Position numbers: made by a program. From a virus, in UHGV virus genome UHGV-1366603: DNA of 64,000 nt. The stretch is one strand, 5' to 3'. Of this stretch, positions 24,001-39,000 are shown piece after piece. Numbering within the stretch: the stretch's first letter is position 1; every line of letters begins with the position of its first letter.

Positions 24001-27000
24001 AATCGATTTTAAGATGCTGTATCGCAGAATAAAAGATGATGGGTTTATACATGTTAAACGATTATCAGAAACTTCTGTGGTGATTTATCATCGCACTGAT
24101 CAGGATTTGTTAGGGTGCGTTATAAGGCTAACAAATTTACGTAGTTTTTACGTTGATTTACTTACAGACTTTTATCCGGAACCTTGGTGTTTTATAGATG
24201 AAAATAAATGACGGATATATCATTTCAGCAATCGTTTCAACTGCGTTGATTGTAGCGATGTTGATGTTCTACGTTAAGACGTCTGACGAATCACGTAGAG
24301 ACTCCCTTTATCGTGAATGTATGTCAGGCACTACTGTAGATAATCCACGCTACGCTGAATTAGTAATGGCGTGTACGGAATACGCTAATCGAATGGGAGG
24401 AGGGAAATGAAAATTTGGTTGCCGATTCTAGTTTTTATCGTTATTGCAGGGGCACTCGCAAGTGCTGAGTTAGATAGCCGTACTTTAGAAACGAAACGTG
24501 AATTGTACCAGGACTGTATAAAGGATTACACACCGGGTACAGAGCTTCATGCACAGGCTGTAAAAAGCTGTGCGTTGATGGCTGAATCGCAGACTCGCTC
24601 CTAATGCGTATCTGGACGCTACAACTCGCTAAGTGGCGGTTAGCTAAGCAGAAAGGATTTCACGCAGTGGATATCACTGTGAAGTCAGGTCGAAAGGAAC
24701 TCGCCCCCGACTGGGATTTCCTAATGGCGTATAAATCTTCTGCCAAGGACGCTGCCGCTGAACGTGAGTACACGATAAAGTATTTGTACAAACTCGAACG
24801 ACTGTTAGATACTGATGCCGAAGTTTTAGTGTCATTACTCAGACACGATGACTTGGTTTTGATGTGTTACTGTCCCGTAGGTAAGTTTTGTCATCGTCAC
24901 CTACTGGCGAACAAACTTCAAGAAGTAGGAATGATGTTCGGTATCGACGTTGCGTTGTGTGGAGAATTAACCGAATGAAAAATTTTATCAAAACCTTCCG
25001 AAAATCACCAATCGTTCTTGATTTTTAGGTACAGAATAGTCTCCTACCGCCCGATTCTATGGGCGGTAGGTGTTTTATTTTTTTTTGATCTTGGAGGGTT
25101 AAGTGGCCACATCTTACGTACCTGATTTGAGTCTGACCTCAGCAGAGCTAGTGGTCGCTTTAATCAATCATGATAACGGGTTACAGCTTACGCTAAACGA
25201 AATACGTATTAGTGGAACTGTAACAAACCCATCCCCAACAACTTCGCGTCGTAACACTATCACTGAAATCAGTAAAATCAGAAAACCGGATGGTGCGTCT
25301 GTTGTGGTTTATTACGACAGACTCGACGCAGATGAAGTATTAACGTATGAACCCATTCTGATTTCGTTAGACGGTACTGAAGACAACGTTCGTGACATTC
25401 TTAGTGTTGTAAATGAATTCTGCGGAACGAACTTACAACCCGAGGATTTACGTGCTTCAGATATCACTTTAGGTAACGATCCCATTTCCGTTAACGTTGC
25501 TGACGATTCTCCTGCCTGGATGAATGCGTTTATGGTGACGTTATTTGATAAAACCGAACGTGCGTTAGCGAACGAAGAAGATGAAATCTTCTGCATCGGT
25601 GACGATAGCGTTCTTACATTCGAGGTTACAGATGGCGACAGCACTGAAGAAGACGAGACTCCATGAGCTCGAAAGCTACGCAGGCACACCGCAGGGTGGG
25701 GTACTGCTGTATAGCAAAGACAATAAAGAATATAAAATTGATGTTGATAAGTTAGCCCCGGTTGCGACAGTCACAACGGTTAACGGTGCGAATAATGCAG
25801 CCACGCTGGATTTCAATACCAGCACTGACATTATTCTGGTGTTAAACGATCCCACCACTACAGTGAAGTTCGCAGCCCTTACCAACGTTGCGGAAAATAC
25901 CCGTTTCGAAGTAATGCTAACGTTTAAGCAAGGAACGGGGGCGAATAAAGTAACCTGGCCTGAAAACGTTAAGTGGCCTCACGGTGCACAACCGGTTTTA
26001 TCCTACGCGGCAAATGCGGAGGACACTCTGTCGCTTTATACCCTTGATGGGGGTGCCACCTGGAAAGGTTCTCTTCTTGCAGCGGGTTACTAAATGAGAA
26101 AACATTTTCAGCGTCACGCGATTAGCTACGCGTTATCGTTAGCTTACGGACACCAATCCTTCGTTACCCGGAATACGGGAACGACTCACGACGCGCACAA
26201 CGAACACTATATTCAAAACGAAGAAGGTGTTCTGTCGAATAACCGTCATTTCATTGCTGACACTATGGCGGAATACCAACCGAACGGGGACGCGACGACC
26301 GAGGGTCAGTCGTTACACGTTATTGGTTACTGCCACATGTATATCGCAACGAAAGACGAAAGATGGTTAGATGCGGCGAAACACGCCTGGGATGCGTACA
26401 ACACGTACTTCTACGTCGGACAACCTATTCCGACCACACCCCAGCGTCGGATTTGTAACTGGTTGGTAAACGGGAAAGAACCGGTATTAGCACATTACCC
26501 AATACACCCTACAGAACCTACCCAAGGTGGGTATAAAAGCGTCCCTGTAAGGTTTACAAACGGACAGTGTAAAATACCGCATGGTGCACCGTTCTGGGGA
26601 GAGTATTTGGATACCTTTACGTTTGCGCATCGTGGTCACCCTGCCTGGGAAGCCATTAACGCAGACGTACAGATTATTAAGGAAGACAAAGAAGGGTCAA
26701 TTAATTGGGAAGACGTTTTAACTCACGTTATTACCAATCCTGATAAACCCTACGAGGCCAAAGCCTGGGTTGATTGGCCTACGTTATTAAACAACGCTAC
26801 AGGGTACACCCCGCTTTGGGGTGGCAGTGCAACAAAAGCCCCTAAACACGACGTTGACTGGATAATTGCCTGGACAGGTAACAAAATCCAGGATAGTGAG
26901 ATTATTGAGACAGGATTAGCAGACGCTGATAAAGGTACCGTACAGTTAAAAGACACGCAGTTAAACGGTGTCTATTTGATTAACTACGCGGTAAAACTGC

Positions 27001-36000: not shown

Positions 36001-39000
36001 GAAAATAAATTGGTTTACCTGGCAGAAGACGGCAGTATTATTGATGCGTACTTCTACATTAGTAATACAAAGACCACAGCCAGTACAATAACCCACACCA
36101 TTCGGGTTGTCTTAGCGAAAGTACCTTCTAAAGTTGTCGATATCACCGATTTATCTGAAACTGAGGTGCAGTACGAGAATGGTAATTTGCCTGTTAAGAT
36201 CGTTATTAAGCATCTTACAGGGACAACACTTTCCCAGAACGGAATGAAATAAATTTTAGGTAGTAGGGGCTAAGCCCCTACTACCTTTCTTTTTTTTTAT
36301 TTTTTCTCAGATATATATTACCTAGAGGAGAGCGAAATTTACATTCGCACTATTAGTTATAGCCGAAAGGAGGATTAGATGTATCACCCGTATTATCTCC
36401 CGCACATTCTAGCAAATAGGGACCCTGGTTATTACTACGAACAAACAAAGGGGTCTTTTAATCGACTTTACATTCGCGAATTTAATACCGTCGAAATGAC
36501 GGATGACCAGTATCTGGAGTATCTAAAAGACCTTTACGGTTTTTCAAAATCGAATAAAGGTGACTTTGGACGTTCCGCAGTCATTAGGGTTGGTGAATAT
36601 CGTCATTTGGCTAAGCCTGTTACGTACCCTATTGTTACGCGTGCTTATACATCGGATAGGCAATATATTGCTGAACTAAAATTTCCTTTACGGATAGACG
36701 GGCCTCAAATTAGCGCTATAGAAGTAGAAATTCAACCAATTGCTGAAGACTATATTGAAGACTACTTCAAGAAAGCTAAAGAGGTACTCGAGGAGGGTTT
36801 AAGCTACTCTGAAGAAGGAACGATTTGTCTTCTCTCGTTACTCTCGAAGACTTATGTCACAGCAAATTTCCGTATCTCCGATTCTAGTAACTACAATACA
36901 CTTACTCCCTCTAAGACAAAACCGGTTTATTGGGACGATCGGTTAGTCGACAGACACCGTTGGCTTACTATCTTAGATAAAGTAAAATTCGAACCCCCTA
37001 AACACACCGAAGACAACTTTATTTTATTACACAACTTCGAACCGATCTATATCCCGACGCATTTTGAACAAGCCTTACGTCATCGATTGAAGTATGTGTT
37101 GGAATTACGGTACGGGAAGATAAACGGACTAACCTGTTCTGGTGAATTGAGTGAAGAAGAACGCGAGAAGATAAAAATCGTGTTTGATAAGTTGGTTGAA
37201 GATTACATTAAGAAGGAAGGACAATTATGAAACCAAATTCTACTAACGGCATTATGTTACTTTGTGATTCTGAAACGTTAGCAAATCGTATTCGTGGTTT
37301 GATGGAAGTACGTTGGAAGCAAAAGGTTCGCGTGGATTACGCTGCTCCGTTTGTTCACGTTACTTGGTTACCAGAAGCTAGTGATTTCAAAGAAAGTATA
37401 ACCACGAGAAGAATTAAAGAATGGTTATCGGCAATCATTAATAAACAGATTACCGTTATCAATTTCCAACTTTTCGGGACTACTGAAGAACATGAAATCT
37501 TGAAACAGTGTTTAAGAGCGTTGGCTGTTTCCTTTTCTGTTCGTGGTAGCTGCTACACGGCTTACTTTATCGGTTCACTTGAACTGTTTAAGAATACGCT
37601 AATGCTTCAGCTAAAAGAAGACTACAAACTTTTAAATAAAATCGATTTTGAATTTCCAGGTATGATTTAAGGAGTATAAAATGCATCAGAAATTAATGAC
37701 TAGTAACAAAGTTCTCCGTTTTAACCAACGTGAGTTAGAAGTTAGCGGAGAACGAATTGGTCGAGTTCGTAATCTTTTAACTGTGTTAGGTTTGGTCGGC
37801 GTTACATTTACATACACAGGTAAAATTCTTTACGCGACCTGGGCTTCATGCGAAAGTGACGCTACCTACGATAAAATTCTCGATGGTATTAAAGACGACT
37901 CAGTTTATTGTAATGTTTTCCGTGGCGTTTCGTACATCGTTGGTGATAAGTTAATGGATAAACTGAACGCCAAATACGGAGACGGTATTATCACCACCGT
38001 CTTCTTTGGTGGCGATATGCTAATCGTAACGAAAAAGGAAATTAGTCTGGAACTTCAAAGTGATATAAACTACGAACTTCAGATTGGCCCACAATTTAGC
38101 TGTAGAATTAATGTTGTTGTCGGTAAAGATGATTTCTACGATGAAGACGAGTCAGTAGAAATTCGAAAAATTGCGAGTCGCTACATGGATTCTATTTTCC
38201 GTAGTTAATAATCAAAAAGGGCTGTAAGTCCCCCACATAGTGTAAACCCCTAAAGGAGCATTAAATGTCTGTAACAATCAACATGAATCTTTATACCAAA
38301 CGTGAACGTCAAATCTTGGCTAATCAGCCAGGCGTTACTACTATCGACGGTAAACCTATCGACCCATTAAAAGTCGTTGTCGCACACAACTGTTTCGAGA
38401 AAGACTGGGACATCATGTATTTCCGTTGCCGTTCTGTCGCCAACGCACTTACCCAGCTCTCTAACTATCATCCCGGTCCAGTATTAAAAGACTGGGTTTG
38501 GTTAGTCCCTAAAACACCTTCAGCGATTGAGTATCCGTCGGGTATGGTCTATATTCGTCCTGTCGCTTATCCAGAACGTTTAAAAGAATATCTGGAGGTT
38601 ATCTGGGACCGACCTCGTAAAGAGCTGGTGACGATTATCCGTTTACTTCAAATGTGCGATATCCCCAATGTTTCGAATCTGAAACTTACGTCTCGCGATG
38701 TTAACCAGGCTTACTGGGAACTGGAGTGGACTGAACCGAAATTCGAAAACACTAACCGCATCTTCTTGCACCGGGGGTAAAAATGTTAGATTGGTTGTTG
38801 GGCTTAATTAACTCACGTCAACAGGAGCTTTATAAAGAAAACACGCGATTGCGGCAGGAACTTAGTAACAATCGTCAGACCAAACGACAATTAATTCGGA
38901 TGGTAAAACAACAGGCGCGTTGTATACGAGATATTGATTATCAGTATCACCGTCTGAATACCTTAGACCCAACAACAAAAGCTTTAGGCAGTACGATTGG

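What the first reader, a model, noticed from the sequence alone, without database searches (positions are those of the whole stretch)
25103..36252. Modular receptor-binding region: three genes share an N-terminal anchor motif, two of them preceded by paralogous partners
The genes at 25632, 29177 (long tail fibre) and 35632 all begin with K.R(L/I)H(E/N)L...GV(L/V)L.SK(D/E).(K/T)(E/D)Y(K/Q)(I/L), consistent with a shared baseplate-docking domain on different distal parts. The 25632 and 35632 genes are each immediately preceded by a paralog (25103 and 35117, both GTG-initiated). This cassette structure is how phages with several fibres or spikes swap host specificity.
Basis: partly seen in the sequence, partly recalled or inferred. 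Interest (0 to 1): 0.6.

Follow-up and report, generated by a model that had tools for sequence, protein, structure and literature searches.

The report
Shared fibre anchor in jumbo phage
A giant (nucleus-forming type) phage carries one operon in which three unrelated host-recognition proteins start with the same 40-residue attachment module, two of them coupled to small DUF7941 proteins, and relatives swap the outer parts while keeping the module, which is an ordinary principle of phage host-range evolution seen here in a little-studied, lineage-specific form.

Summary
Genes starting at 25632, 29177 and 35632 share a strictly N-terminal ~41-aa motif. Each retrieves only the other two from the six-frame translation (E 1e-9 to 2e-4), although DNA identity is only 45-51%. 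Genes 25103 and 35117 are paralogs (36% identity, E 2e-38), and both are short DUF7941 proteins.

The window comes from a Seoulvirus-like chimallivirus (jumbo phage). The locus 25103-36252 lies between two strong terminators. It contains:
- DUF7941a, then anchor plus a small beta-sandwich (153 aa), then an anchor-less 1001-aa (alpha/alpha)6 glycosidase-like tail protein.
- An anchor-bearing mosaic long tail fibre with a self-cleaving C-terminal chaperone, followed by two gp38-type adhesins.
- DUF7941b, then anchor plus an unknown 206-aa protein.

SPN3US-like phages have only the first triplet. Metagenomic relatives keep the anchors and DUF7941 genes but exchange or delete distal parts (706-aa esterase, 710, 273 aa). 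Klebsiella phage Eowyn has six fibre or depolymerase genes with a homologous anchor (hhalign 96%), interleaved with five short DUF7941 genes.

The best reading is a plug-in anchor for modular receptor-binding proteins. DUF7941 as the socket is inferred, not shown. I rate this a new variant of a known kind.

The parts
25043..25070 (.). Strong hairpin terminator (11-bp stem followed by a T-run) that closes the upstream unit and marks the left border of the locus
   Evidence: the sequence is shown
25103..25666 (+). DUF7941a: short DUF7941 protein (187 aa; N-terminal globular domain plus an acidic tail ...EIFCIGDDSVLTFEV). GTG start with a GGAGG ribosome-binding site
   Evidence: Pfam PF25613 E 6e-20, 72 bits against a cut-off of 27, profile positions 3-154 of 276; phrog_2935; 45-47% identical to SPN3US gp122 and Asesino gp139
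25632..25754 (+). Anchor module, copy 1 (41 aa)
25632..26093 (+). A1: 153-aa protein made of the anchor plus a C-terminal beta-sandwich; homolog of SPN3US gp123. Probable adaptor for the next gene's product
26094..29099 (+). 1001-aa tail protein without an anchor; predicted (alpha/alpha)6 glycosidase-like core with CBM-like beta-sandwich domains; homolog of SPN3US gp124
   Evidence: phrog_2871; 316 homologs, several named 'phage tail protein'. AF2 pLDDT 89.6, pTM 0.86. Foldseek probability 1.0 to GH48 cellobiohydrolases, plus GH116, C5-epimerase and CBM11/22
29177..29299 (+). Anchor module, copy 2 (41 aa)
29177..33643 (+). Long tail fibre, 1488 aa. Layout: anchor, Ala/Thr/Gln-rich rod (residues 42-225), a mosaic of P2 gpH-, P1 S- and T-even-like modules with five GNAATATKL repeats, then a C-terminal chaperone
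   Evidence: Pfam Phage_fiber_2, Gp34_trimer and Peptidase_S74; 61 PHROG tail-fibre families; tblastn 64% to P2 gpH over residues 388-859 and 58% to P1 S; repeats listed
33350..33643 (+). Intramolecular chaperone of the fibre (last 97 aa). The predicted autocleavage site VQIR|SDRRNK follows residue 1391
   Evidence: Peptidase_S74 at residues 1392-1446. The motif aligns with the S16 gp37 site DLNVS|SDRRIKK described in PMC7917993
33643..34425 (+). gp38-type adhesin 1 (260 aa, glycine-rich receptor-binding domain)
   Evidence: Pfam GP38 E 3e-69 and Gp38_N E 1.5e-15; 78-91% nucleotide identity to gp38 of E. coli T-even-type phages
34442..34954 (+). Adhesin 2 (170 aa): the same Gp38_N plug with a different C-terminal domain
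   Evidence: Gp38_N E 3e-20; phrog_1121 'tail fiber adhesin' E 3e-53; 87.7% nucleotide identity to Escherichia phage CMS-2020a
35117..35629 (+). DUF7941b: second short DUF7941 protein (170 aa, tail ...NLIVTADNRVLTFGG). GTG start with a GGAGG ribosome-binding site
   Evidence: PF25613 E 3e-16, 60 bits; paralog of 25103; ribosome-binding site
35632..35754 (+). Anchor module, copy 3 (41 aa, the most divergent)
35632..36252 (+). A3: 206-aa protein made of the anchor plus a distal domain of unknown fold
   Evidence: Residues 47-205 match the C-terminus of phrog_33169. No tblastn match in 50,697 phage records. Homologs P0009 and P0006 occur in metagenomes
36258..36286 (.). Strong bidirectional hairpin terminator (13-bp stem) forming the right border of the locus

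Best explanation
Region 25103-36252 is a single operon bracketed by terminators. It encodes the receptor-binding proteins of a Seoulvirus-like chimallivirus (nucleus-forming jumbo phage).

**The anchor.** A module of about 41 residues (a flexible arm carrying K-x-R-L/I-H-E/N-L, then a beta-hairpin V-L-L-x-S-K-D/E...E-Y-K/Q-L/I) acts as a common plug. It attaches structurally unrelated proteins to the same kind of site on the tail periphery.

**Three cargoes use the plug.**
1. A 153-aa protein whose beta-sandwich probably carries the anchor-less 1001-aa glycosidase-like enzyme encoded next.
2. A long trimeric fibre assembled from modules of P1-, P2- and T-even-type fibres. Its C-terminal chaperone is predicted to cleave itself off and expose a tip. 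One of two alternative gp38 adhesins then plugs into that tip through a shared Gp38_N domain.
3. A 206-aa protein with an unknown distal domain.

**The DUF7941 partners.** Each of the two short DUF7941 genes is translationally coupled to an anchor-bearing gene. I infer that their products are the cognate sockets or adaptors (or at least assembly partners) that link the anchor to the DUF7941-containing peripheral baseplate or fibre network.

**How host range changes.** Everything distal to the anchor is recombined, sometimes together with the tail of the upstream DUF7941 gene.

**Shown versus inferred.**
- Shown: the shared motif, the paralogy, the family assignments, the cassette exchange among relatives, and the homologous system in phage Eowyn.
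- Inferred: physical docking, DUF7941 as the socket, the 153-aa protein as carrier of the enzyme, chaperone autocleavage, and adhesin choice.
For: **The motif is significant and constrained at the protein level.**
- phmmer and motif counts.
- Only 45-51% nucleotide identity between copies.

**The motif is always N-terminal and sits on diverse distal parts.**
- The profile search places it at residues 1-41 on at least eight architectures.

**Relatives keep the framework and vary the cargo.**
- L014, L015, L018 and L019 repeat the window's gene order.
- L007, L021 and L011 have lost the 153-aa and 1001-aa genes. L007 and L011 retain a 34-codon anchor remnant.
- L007, L010 and L011 carry 706-aa (SASA esterase), 710-aa and 273-aa cargoes on the same anchor.
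- In all these loci each short DUF7941 gene that can be read through is followed directly by an anchor gene or an anchor remnant.

**The DUF7941b tail travels with its cargo.**
- Between cassette types the N-terminal domain stays 81-86% identical, while the tail drops to 40-43% identity and changes together with the class of the downstream anchor.

**A second genus has the same system.**
- Klebsiella phage Eowyn has six fibre or depolymerase genes with a homologous anchor (hhalign probability 96.4%, E 1.2e-9), interleaved with five short DUF7941 genes.

**Phyletic co-occurrence.**
- Full-length DUF7941a-type proteins and the anchor occur in the same Seoulvirus and Asesino records.

**DUF7941 is linked to the baseplate periphery.**
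- PhiKZ gp127 in PDB 9xqd matches the DUF7941 profile at E 7e-9.
- The Goslar preprint places gp127 at the outer peripheral baseplate and shows filaments of purified gp22.

**Homologs are in the virion.**
- SPN3US gp123 and gp124 are virion proteins not assigned to the head.

**Structure predictions fit a docking peptide and an adaptor.**
- In the AF2 model the anchor is a low-confidence arm plus a hairpin.

**The fibre tip follows the S16 scheme.**
- Peptidase_S74, the cleavage motif and two Gp38_N proteins are all present.
Against: - No physical interaction was tested.
- SPN3US gp122 (the DUF7941a homolog) was not detected in wild-type virions, whereas gp123 and gp124 were. This argues against a stoichiometric structural socket. 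A caveat from reading the sequence: its predicted tryptic peptides are very long, so it may simply be hard to detect.
- The SPN3US authors assigned paralog family B to the head because its members appeared in a tailless mutant. They tentatively place gp122 in that family; my reading, untested here, is that family B is the DUF7941 family. This conflicts with the baseplate model in the Goslar preprint.
- The numbers do not fit a one-to-one scheme. The window has three anchors but only two short DUF7941 genes, and the long fibre is not preceded by one.
- The co-variation between the DUF7941b tail and the downstream anchor could reflect physical linkage alone.
- The profile of the DUF7941 tails shows no similarity to the anchor hairpin.
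- The AF2 anchor model is a monomer and has low confidence.
Confidence: 0.6

Rival explanations
1. The anchor docks directly onto a conserved baseplate or spoke protein, for example the giant paralogous virion proteins at 55500-63951 or the gp32-like spoke protein at 5579. The short DUF7941 proteins are not the socket. They would be non-structural assembly chaperones for the downstream protein, or independent subunits of the DUF7941 filaments that happen to be encoded in the same late operon.
For: - SPN3US gp122 is undetected in wild-type virions, while gp123 and gp124 are present.
- There are three anchors but only two short DUF7941 genes in the window. Several anchor genes in relatives have no DUF7941 gene immediately upstream: the long fibre after the 1001-aa gene, the 273-aa gene in L011 and the 710-aa gene in L010.
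- Tight translational coupling is also typical of chaperone-client pairs.
- In L007 and L011 DUF7941a persists after its original downstream partner was lost.
Against: - Fibre chaperones are usually encoded downstream of their client, and such genes do exist in this locus in relatives: Caudo_TAP in L010 and DUF4376 in L011.
- DUF7941 proteins are abundant virion components in Goslar, and a DUF7941 N-terminal domain is modelled in the PhiKZ peripheral baseplate.
- The pairing recurs in two genera and in nearly every cassette.
Confidence: 0.28
2. The shared N-terminus is not a docking element. It is instead a folding or trimerisation nucleus, or an intracellular sorting signal that directs late proteins to the tail-assembly site of a nucleus-forming phage.
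For: - The motif is strictly N-terminal, and the first 20 residues are predicted to be flexible.
- Chimalliviruses sort proteins between compartments (background in the preprint read).
Against: - It occurs only on proteins of the receptor-binding locus and on no other late or virion gene of the window.
- It is found on both fibrous trimers and small or enzymatic cargoes, which would not share a folding nucleus.
- The long fibre already has its own C-terminal trimerisation chaperone.
Confidence: 0.08
3. The resemblance is a trivial by-product of a recent duplication or gene conversion, or of a shared translation-initiation region, and has no function of its own.
For: Paralogous genes lie next to each other in one operon.
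Against: - Nucleotide identity of the three stretches is only 45-51%, with no exact run longer than 7 nt, while the peptide is conserved.
- The motif is conserved across genera and on unrelated cargoes.
Confidence: 0.02

Closest known systems
SPN3US gp122-gp123-gp124 triplet (Seoulvirus; also Asesino gp139-141, pEa_SNUABM_29 gp28-26, SPAsTU)
   Same: - Same position in the genome and same gene order: short DUF7941, then a roughly 155-aa anchor protein, then a roughly 1005-aa tail protein.
- 45-47% protein identity for the two small proteins. The large gene is 72.7% identical in DNA to its pEa_SNUABM_29 counterpart, and close protein homologs are about 71-72% identical.
- gp123 and gp124 are virion proteins.
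   Different: - Known relatives have one anchor gene per genome.
- The window has three anchor genes, a second DUF7941 gene, and a 7.2-kb insertion carrying a long fibre and two gp38 adhesins.
DUF7941 fibre proteins of chimalliviruses (Goslar gp22/gp23 and others; PhiKZ gp126/gp127), Basu et al. 2026 bioRxiv 10.64898/2026.04.21.720040
   Same: - 25103 and 35117 match PF25613 over the N-terminal globular domain plus linker, the gp23-like short form.
- The window also has a gp22/gp23/endolysin-like trio at 43345-45359.
   Different: - The preprint describes head-to-tail DUF7941 filaments and DUF7941 fused directly to carbohydrate-binding domains.
- In the passages I retrieved (DUF7941, tail-fibre and baseplate text) it does not describe a separate anchor motif on neighbouring fibre genes.
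- Goslar's fibre candidates gp25, gp26 and gp29 lack the motif.
Receptor-binding locus of Klebsiella phage vB_KvM-Eowyn (Eowynvirus)
   Same: - Six tail-fibre or EPS-depolymerase genes begin with a homologous anchor (MA..V.KK(L/I).DLP.Y...G.LLY.E...DY.LP; hhalign 96.4%).
- They are interleaved with five short DUF7941 genes.
   Different: - Different genus and host.
- The anchors are only about 32% identical to those of the window.
- The cargoes are depolymerase-like rather than a T-even-type fibre with gp38 adhesins.
Branched or multi-RBP systems with conserved N-terminal anchors or docking peptides (Klebsiella phages, Latka et al. 2019 PMC6872550; KP32-type 'conserved peptide', PMC13352976; CBA120 tailspikes)
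   Same: - Same logic: a short conserved N-terminus, variable distal domains, and several receptor-binding proteins per virion.
   Different: - No sequence relationship between the anchors.
- The partner genes here are DUF7941, a chimallivirus-specific family.
- That the N-terminal domains of TSP4 act as the branching platform is from my own knowledge and was not tested here.
T2/S16-type long-tail-fibre tip (gp37 with an autocleaved chaperone plus the gp38 adhesin)
   Same: - Peptidase_S74 domain, a cleavage motif IR|SDRRNK resembling the S16 motif, and a gp38 protein with Gp38_N and a glycine-rich domain.
- 78-91% nucleotide identity to gp38 of E. coli T-even-type phages.
   Different: - The tip sits on a chimallivirus anchor rather than on a T4-type gp34-36 fibre.
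- Two alternative Gp38_N adhesins are encoded in tandem.

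Membership tests
DUF7941 (Pfam PF25613), chimallivirus virion or fibre module | Match to the family HMM above the curated gathering score | tested here: met
   25103: 72.3 bits. 35117: 60.1 bits. The cut-off is 27. Four further members in the window at 5032, 43345, 44207 and 47980.
DUF7941 (Pfam PF25613), chimallivirus virion or fibre module | Short-form architecture (N-terminal globular domain plus linker, like Goslar gp23) | tested here: met
   The matches cover profile positions 3-154 of 276. The proteins are 170-187 aa with a short acidic tail.
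DUF7941 (Pfam PF25613), chimallivirus virion or fibre module | Presence in virions, filament formation, and attachment at the peripheral baseplate | not testable with these tools
   Only indirect evidence, and it conflicts. PhiKZ gp127 is present in PDB 9xqd and Goslar gp22 forms filaments. Against this, SPN3US gp122 is undetected in virions and family B is assigned to the head.
Seoulvirus gp122/123/124 tail module | Homology of all three proteins and conserved gene order at the same genomic position | tested here: met
RBP systems with a conserved N-terminal anchor | Several proteins in one genome share a short N-terminus while the rest is unrelated | tested here: met
RBP systems with a conserved N-terminal anchor | Distal parts are exchanged among relatives while the anchor is kept | tested here: met
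RBP systems with a conserved N-terminal anchor | The anchor physically mediates attachment to the virion | not testable with these tools
The only support is the proteomics of the SPN3US homologs.
gp38 adhesin (Pfam GP38 / Gp38_N) | N-terminal attachment domain plus a glycine-rich receptor-binding domain | tested here: met
   33643: both domains present (E 1.5e-15 and 2.6e-69). 34442: Gp38_N only, with the remainder matching phrog_1121 'tail fiber adhesin'.
S16/T2-type gp37 tip with an intramolecular chaperone | C-terminal Peptidase_S74 domain with a cleavage motif directly upstream | tested here: met
   39.4 bits against a cut-off of 22. The VQIR|SDRRNK motif is present and compares with the S16 motif. 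Cleavage itself was not tested.
(alpha/alpha)6 glycoside hydrolases (GH48/GH116-like), for the 1001-aa protein | Fold match and conserved catalytic acid/base residues | tested here: inconclusive
   Foldseek probability 1.0 to GH48 but TM-scores of only 0.15-0.25. No Pfam or PDB sequence match. Catalytic residues were not examined.
T4 gp10 / CBA120 XD-type branching domains, for the A1 C-domain | Fold similarity to domains that hold other fibres | tested here: inconclusive

The most novel reading that the evidence does not exclude
Short DUF7941 proteins are dedicated sockets of a chimallivirus-specific plug-and-socket display system. Each C-terminal tail pairs with a cognate class of the 41-aa anchor, so the DUF7941 scaffold at the peripheral baseplate can present any cargo that acquires the anchor, including fibres captured from T-even, P1 and P2-type phages. 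This would explain the still-unassigned peripheral baseplate and fibre density of PhiKZ and Goslar, and would give a rule for re-targeting jumbo phages.
Probability: 0.3. Interest if true: 0.75.

Novelty: new variant of a known kind. Interest (0 to 1): 0.5.

Why it matters
**An open structural question becomes testable.** How nucleus-forming jumbo phages recognise hosts is largely unknown. The peripheral baseplate and fibres are unresolved in both the PhiKZ and Goslar structures, and the role and location of the abundant DUF7941 proteins are disputed. This locus supplies a concrete hypothesis that links the two problems: a defined 41-aa plug on every receptor-binding protein, genetically coupled to short DUF7941 proteins.

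**Natural experiments already exist.** Relatives with swapped cargoes, a deletion leaving an anchor remnant, and a second genus with six such proteins can all be compared.

**Practical use.** The anchor boundary is the obvious junction for engineering the host range of Seoulvirus-like phages. The tandem gp38 adhesins also show that a chimallivirus can import the T-even adhesin system whole.

Tried and rejected
- **Anchor hairpin as a mimic of the DUF7941 tail.** I tested whether the hairpin GVLLYSKDNKEYKIDV resembles the C-terminal tail IFCIGDDSVLTFEV and might plug into the DUF7941 N-terminal domain in the same way. hhalign of tail and hairpin profiles gives probability 0.9%. Rejected at the sequence level.
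- **Anchor as the missing second half of a split DUF7941 domain.** Pfam scans of the anchor proteins at E <= 10 give no DUF7941 match. Rejected.
- **Programmed frameshift joining DUF7941 to the anchor gene.** The junction differs between pairs and phages (35-nt overlap, 2-nt gap, ATGA overlap), so no conserved slippery context exists. Rejected.
- **Solved structures.** The anchor has no PDB sequence match. The 1001-aa protein has no PDB sequence match. Foldseek on the A1 model finds nothing significant.
- **The 206-aa protein.** tblastn against the phage collection finds no match.
- **Word-indexed protein search with the anchor profile.** It returned only four fragments at contig ends. The exhaustive search was needed.
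- **Anchors outside the Seoulvirus-like and Eowyn lineages.** None was found on Goslar gp25-34 or in the RAY locus examined.

Full report
**1. What the window is**

The region has no close full-length relative among 50,697 deposited phage genomes. The flanks match Seoulvirus and Erskinevirus jumbo phages (SPN3US, phiEaH2, Asesino, pEa_SNUABM_29) at 72-75% nucleotide identity. These are phiKZ-related jumbo phages; that they belong to Chimalliviridae (the nucleus-forming phages) is background knowledge, since the fetched records give only the genus. The gp38-like genes inside the region are 78-91% identical in DNA to adhesin genes of E. coli T-even-type phages, so the host is probably E. coli or a close relative. 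Contigs of 220-226 kb from several metagenomes and IMG/VR carry the same locus.

**2. Checking the observation**

- *The motif is real.* The three N-termini align over about 41 residues, with twelve invariant positions (eleven of them within the first 34 residues). Each 41-aa stretch, used alone in phmmer against all 634 six-frame segments of the window, finds only the other two. E-values are about 1e-9 for the 25632/29177 pair and 3e-5 to 2e-4 for pairs with 35632, and the next-best hit has E > 1. The third copy has V in place of G.
- *The conservation is in the peptide.* The three coding stretches are only 45-51% identical in DNA, with no exact run longer than 7 nt. This rules out recent duplication, gene conversion and a shared RNA element.
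- *The upstream genes are paralogs.* They share 36% identity (E 2e-38). Both start at GTG behind a GGAGG site, and both are tightly coupled to the gene that follows.

**3. What the genes are**

- *25103 and 35117* are short members of DUF7941 (PF25613; 72 and 60 bits against a cut-off of 27). The match covers only the first 154 of 276 profile positions. The window has four more DUF7941 genes.
- *26094 (1001 aa)* has no anchor and no Pfam match. It belongs to a very large family of 'phage tail proteins'. Its model (pLDDT 89.6, pTM 0.86) resembles (alpha/alpha)6 glycoside hydrolases (GH48 probability 1.0, GH116) with CBM-like sandwiches. TM-scores are low, and I did not examine catalytic residues.
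- *29177 (1488 aa)* is a long fibre. It consists of the anchor, an Ala/Thr/Gln-rich rod, modules 58-64% identical to P1 S and P2 gpH fibres, five GNAATATKL repeats, a Gp34_trimer-like segment and a Peptidase_S74 chaperone. The sequence VQIR|SDRRNK after residue 1391 resembles the autocleavage site of phage S16 gp37. In S16, removal of the chaperone exposes the gp38 docking surface (PMC7917993).
- *33643 and 34442.* The first is a complete gp38 adhesin. The second has the same Gp38_N plug on a different domain.
- *35632 (206 aa)* has the anchor and a distal domain with no match in deposited phages.

**4. Comparative evidence for a modular anchor**

- *One anchor in known relatives.* SPN3US, Asesino, pEa_SNUABM_29 and SPAsTU carry only the triplet DUF7941, roughly 155-aa anchor protein and roughly 1005-aa protein. 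Relative to them the window has a 7.2-kb insertion with the fibre, the two adhesins and a second DUF7941/anchor pair.
- *Diverse cargoes.* An exhaustive HMM search of 1.84 billion proteins with the anchor profile gave 22 hits. Apart from a few marginal matches (E about 1e-4 to 1e-3) and two scrambled assembly artefacts, the motif is at residues 1-41. It sits on proteins of about 155, 188, 205, 259/710, 273, 706 and about 1494 aa with unrelated distal sequences, including a SASA-type esterase.
- *Same framework, different cargo.* L014, L015, L018 and L019 repeat the window's order, with fibres of 1493-1541 aa against 1488 aa in the window. L021, L007 and L011 have DUF7941a followed directly by the fibre. 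L007 ends with DUF7941b followed by the 706-aa esterase. L011 has an extra 273-aa anchor protein and a 709-aa one, each followed by a DUF4376 gene. L010 has a fibre with a Collar domain and a classical tail-fibre assembly gene, then DUF7941b, a 207-aa anchor protein and a 710-aa anchor protein.
- *A deletion scar.* In L007 and L011 the gap after DUF7941a holds a 34-codon decayed anchor and the last codons of the 1001-aa gene. This is the scar of one deletion that removed both genes together.
- *Assembly breaks.* Metagenome assemblies often break just after the anchor (P0001-P0004), as expected where variants share the anchor and then diverge.

**5. The link with DUF7941**

- *Gene order.* In the related loci, each short DUF7941 gene that can be read through is followed directly by an anchor gene or an anchor remnant.
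- *Co-variation.* Between the window-type and L007-type cassettes, the N-terminal 140 residues of DUF7941b stay 81-86% identical. The last 30 residues drop to 40-43% identity and change together with the class of the downstream anchor. L011 shows a breakpoint near residue 80.
- *Phyletic pattern.* Full-length DUF7941a-type proteins and the anchor occur in the same deposited phages.
- *A second genus.* Klebsiella phage Eowyn has six tail-fibre or EPS-depolymerase genes whose N-termini are homologous to the anchor (hhalign 96.4%, E 1.2e-9), interleaved with five short DUF7941 genes.
- *Published context.* A 2026 preprint on phage Goslar reports that DUF7941 is chimallivirus-specific, that two members are present at about 580 and 2,140 copies per virion, and that purified gp22 forms filaments. 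It also places PhiKZ gp127 at the outer peripheral baseplate. PDB 9xqd does contain a PHIKZ127 chain that matches my DUF7941 profile (E 7e-9). In the passages I retrieved the preprint does not describe the anchor, and Goslar's fibre candidates lack it.

**6. Evidence that cuts the other way**

- SPN3US proteomics found gp123 and gp124 in virions, not flagged as head proteins. It did not find gp122, the DUF7941a homolog, in wild-type particles. The large paralog family B, to which the authors tentatively add gp122, was assigned to the head because it was present in a tailless mutant. That family B corresponds to DUF7941 is my inference; I did not scan its members.
- The stoichiometry of genes is not one-to-one: three anchors against two short DUF7941 genes.
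- Tail/anchor co-variation could be mere linkage.
- The tails do not resemble the anchor hairpin.
- I could not run a complex prediction.

I therefore hold the statement 'common plug for modular receptor-binding proteins' at about 0.75. The statement 'short DUF7941 is its socket' stands at about 0.4. The main rival is direct docking on a baseplate protein, with DUF7941 acting as an assembly partner.

**7. Comparison with what is known**

The principle of conserved N-terminal anchors with exchangeable distal domains and several receptor-binding proteins per virion is well established, for example in Klebsiella phages (PMC6872550, PMC13352976). A 2026 preprint tabulates RBP adapter clusters whose phage families include Chimalliviridae, but the retrieved text names no phage or sequence. 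The gp37-chaperone/gp38 tip is the S16/T2 scheme.

What is specific here:
- The anchor family itself, which is restricted to Seoulvirus-like and Eowyn-like chimalliviruses in my searches.
- Its systematic pairing with short DUF7941 genes.
- Its expansion from one to three cargoes in this lineage.
- The grafting of a complete T-even-type fibre tip, with two alternative adhesins, onto a chimallivirus anchor.

I rate this a new variant of a known kind, with interest 0.5.

**8. Verdict**

The added value is the identification of the partner genes as DUF7941, the two-tier plug-in architecture, the natural cassette variants, and the homologous six-fibre system in phage Eowyn.

Noticed in passing
window 33643-34954: Two tandem adhesin genes share the Gp38_N plug, including its conserved tryptophans, but have different receptor-binding domains. 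This forms a second plug-in tier at the distal end of the long fibre. Relatives carry one or two such genes of varying length (167-261 aa).
   Followed up: partly
L007 3540-3790; L011 4920-5160: A decayed 34-codon anchor remnant (MTTQL(R/K)KTRL...) and the last codons of the 1001-aa gene lie between DUF7941a and the long-fibre gene. This is the scar of a single deletion that removed the 153-aa and 1001-aa genes together.
   Followed up: yes
window 43345-45359: A full-length DUF7941 gene (282 aa), a short one (165 aa) and a GH108/PG_binding_3 endolysin are syntenic with Goslar gp22/gp23/gp24. gp22 and gp23 are the two most abundant DUF7941 virion proteins of Goslar. The window holds six DUF7941 genes in all (also 5032 and 47980).
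   Followed up: partly
window 5032-6466: A short DUF7941 gene (5032) lies directly upstream of a DUF7208 protein (5579). The latter is 29% identical (E 1e-39) to Goslar gp32, the spoke protein that joins the inner and peripheral baseplate. In PhiKZ the DUF7941 protein gp127 sits next to the gp32 homolog.
   Followed up: partly
literature (SPN3US PMC5694885 against the Goslar preprint): The SPN3US authors tentatively add gp122 (the DUF7941a homolog) to their 20-member 'paralog family B', which suggests (not tested here) that family B corresponds to DUF7941. It was assigned to the head because it is present in tailless particles. The Goslar preprint places DUF7941 filaments at the baseplate. The two placements conflict and the matter is unresolved.
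   Followed up: partly
window 35117-35629 compared with L007 9485-9997 and L011 11475-11987: A recombination breakpoint lies inside DUF7941b. The N-terminal domain is conserved (81-86%), while the C-terminal tail (40-43%) travels with the downstream cargo gene. The L011 copy switches type near residue 80.
   Followed up: yes
window 29100-29176: The 77-nt spacer before the long-fibre gene contains a G9 run that can pair with CTCCCCC (TTGGGGGGGGGTAAGCTACTCCCCC). The leader downstream of it is conserved in L007, so the fibre gene appears to move together with its own 5' leader. The function is unknown.
   Followed up: no
window 54260-63951 (- strand): Three paralogous large virion-protein genes (401 aa, 1727 aa and at least 1057 aa, the last running toward the window end). 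They probably correspond to SPN3US gp168-170, which are baseplate or fibre candidates, and are possible alternative docking partners for the anchor.
   Followed up: partly
P0001-P0004; L005 10001-10395: Metagenome contigs repeatedly end, or gene calls turn to nonsense, a few codons after the anchor. This is consistent with co-existing variants that share the anchor and then diverge.
   Followed up: no
window 49772-52001 (- strand): Two radical-SAM genes are conserved with SPN3US-like phages at 72.6% nucleotide identity. They are unrelated to the finding.
   Followed up: no
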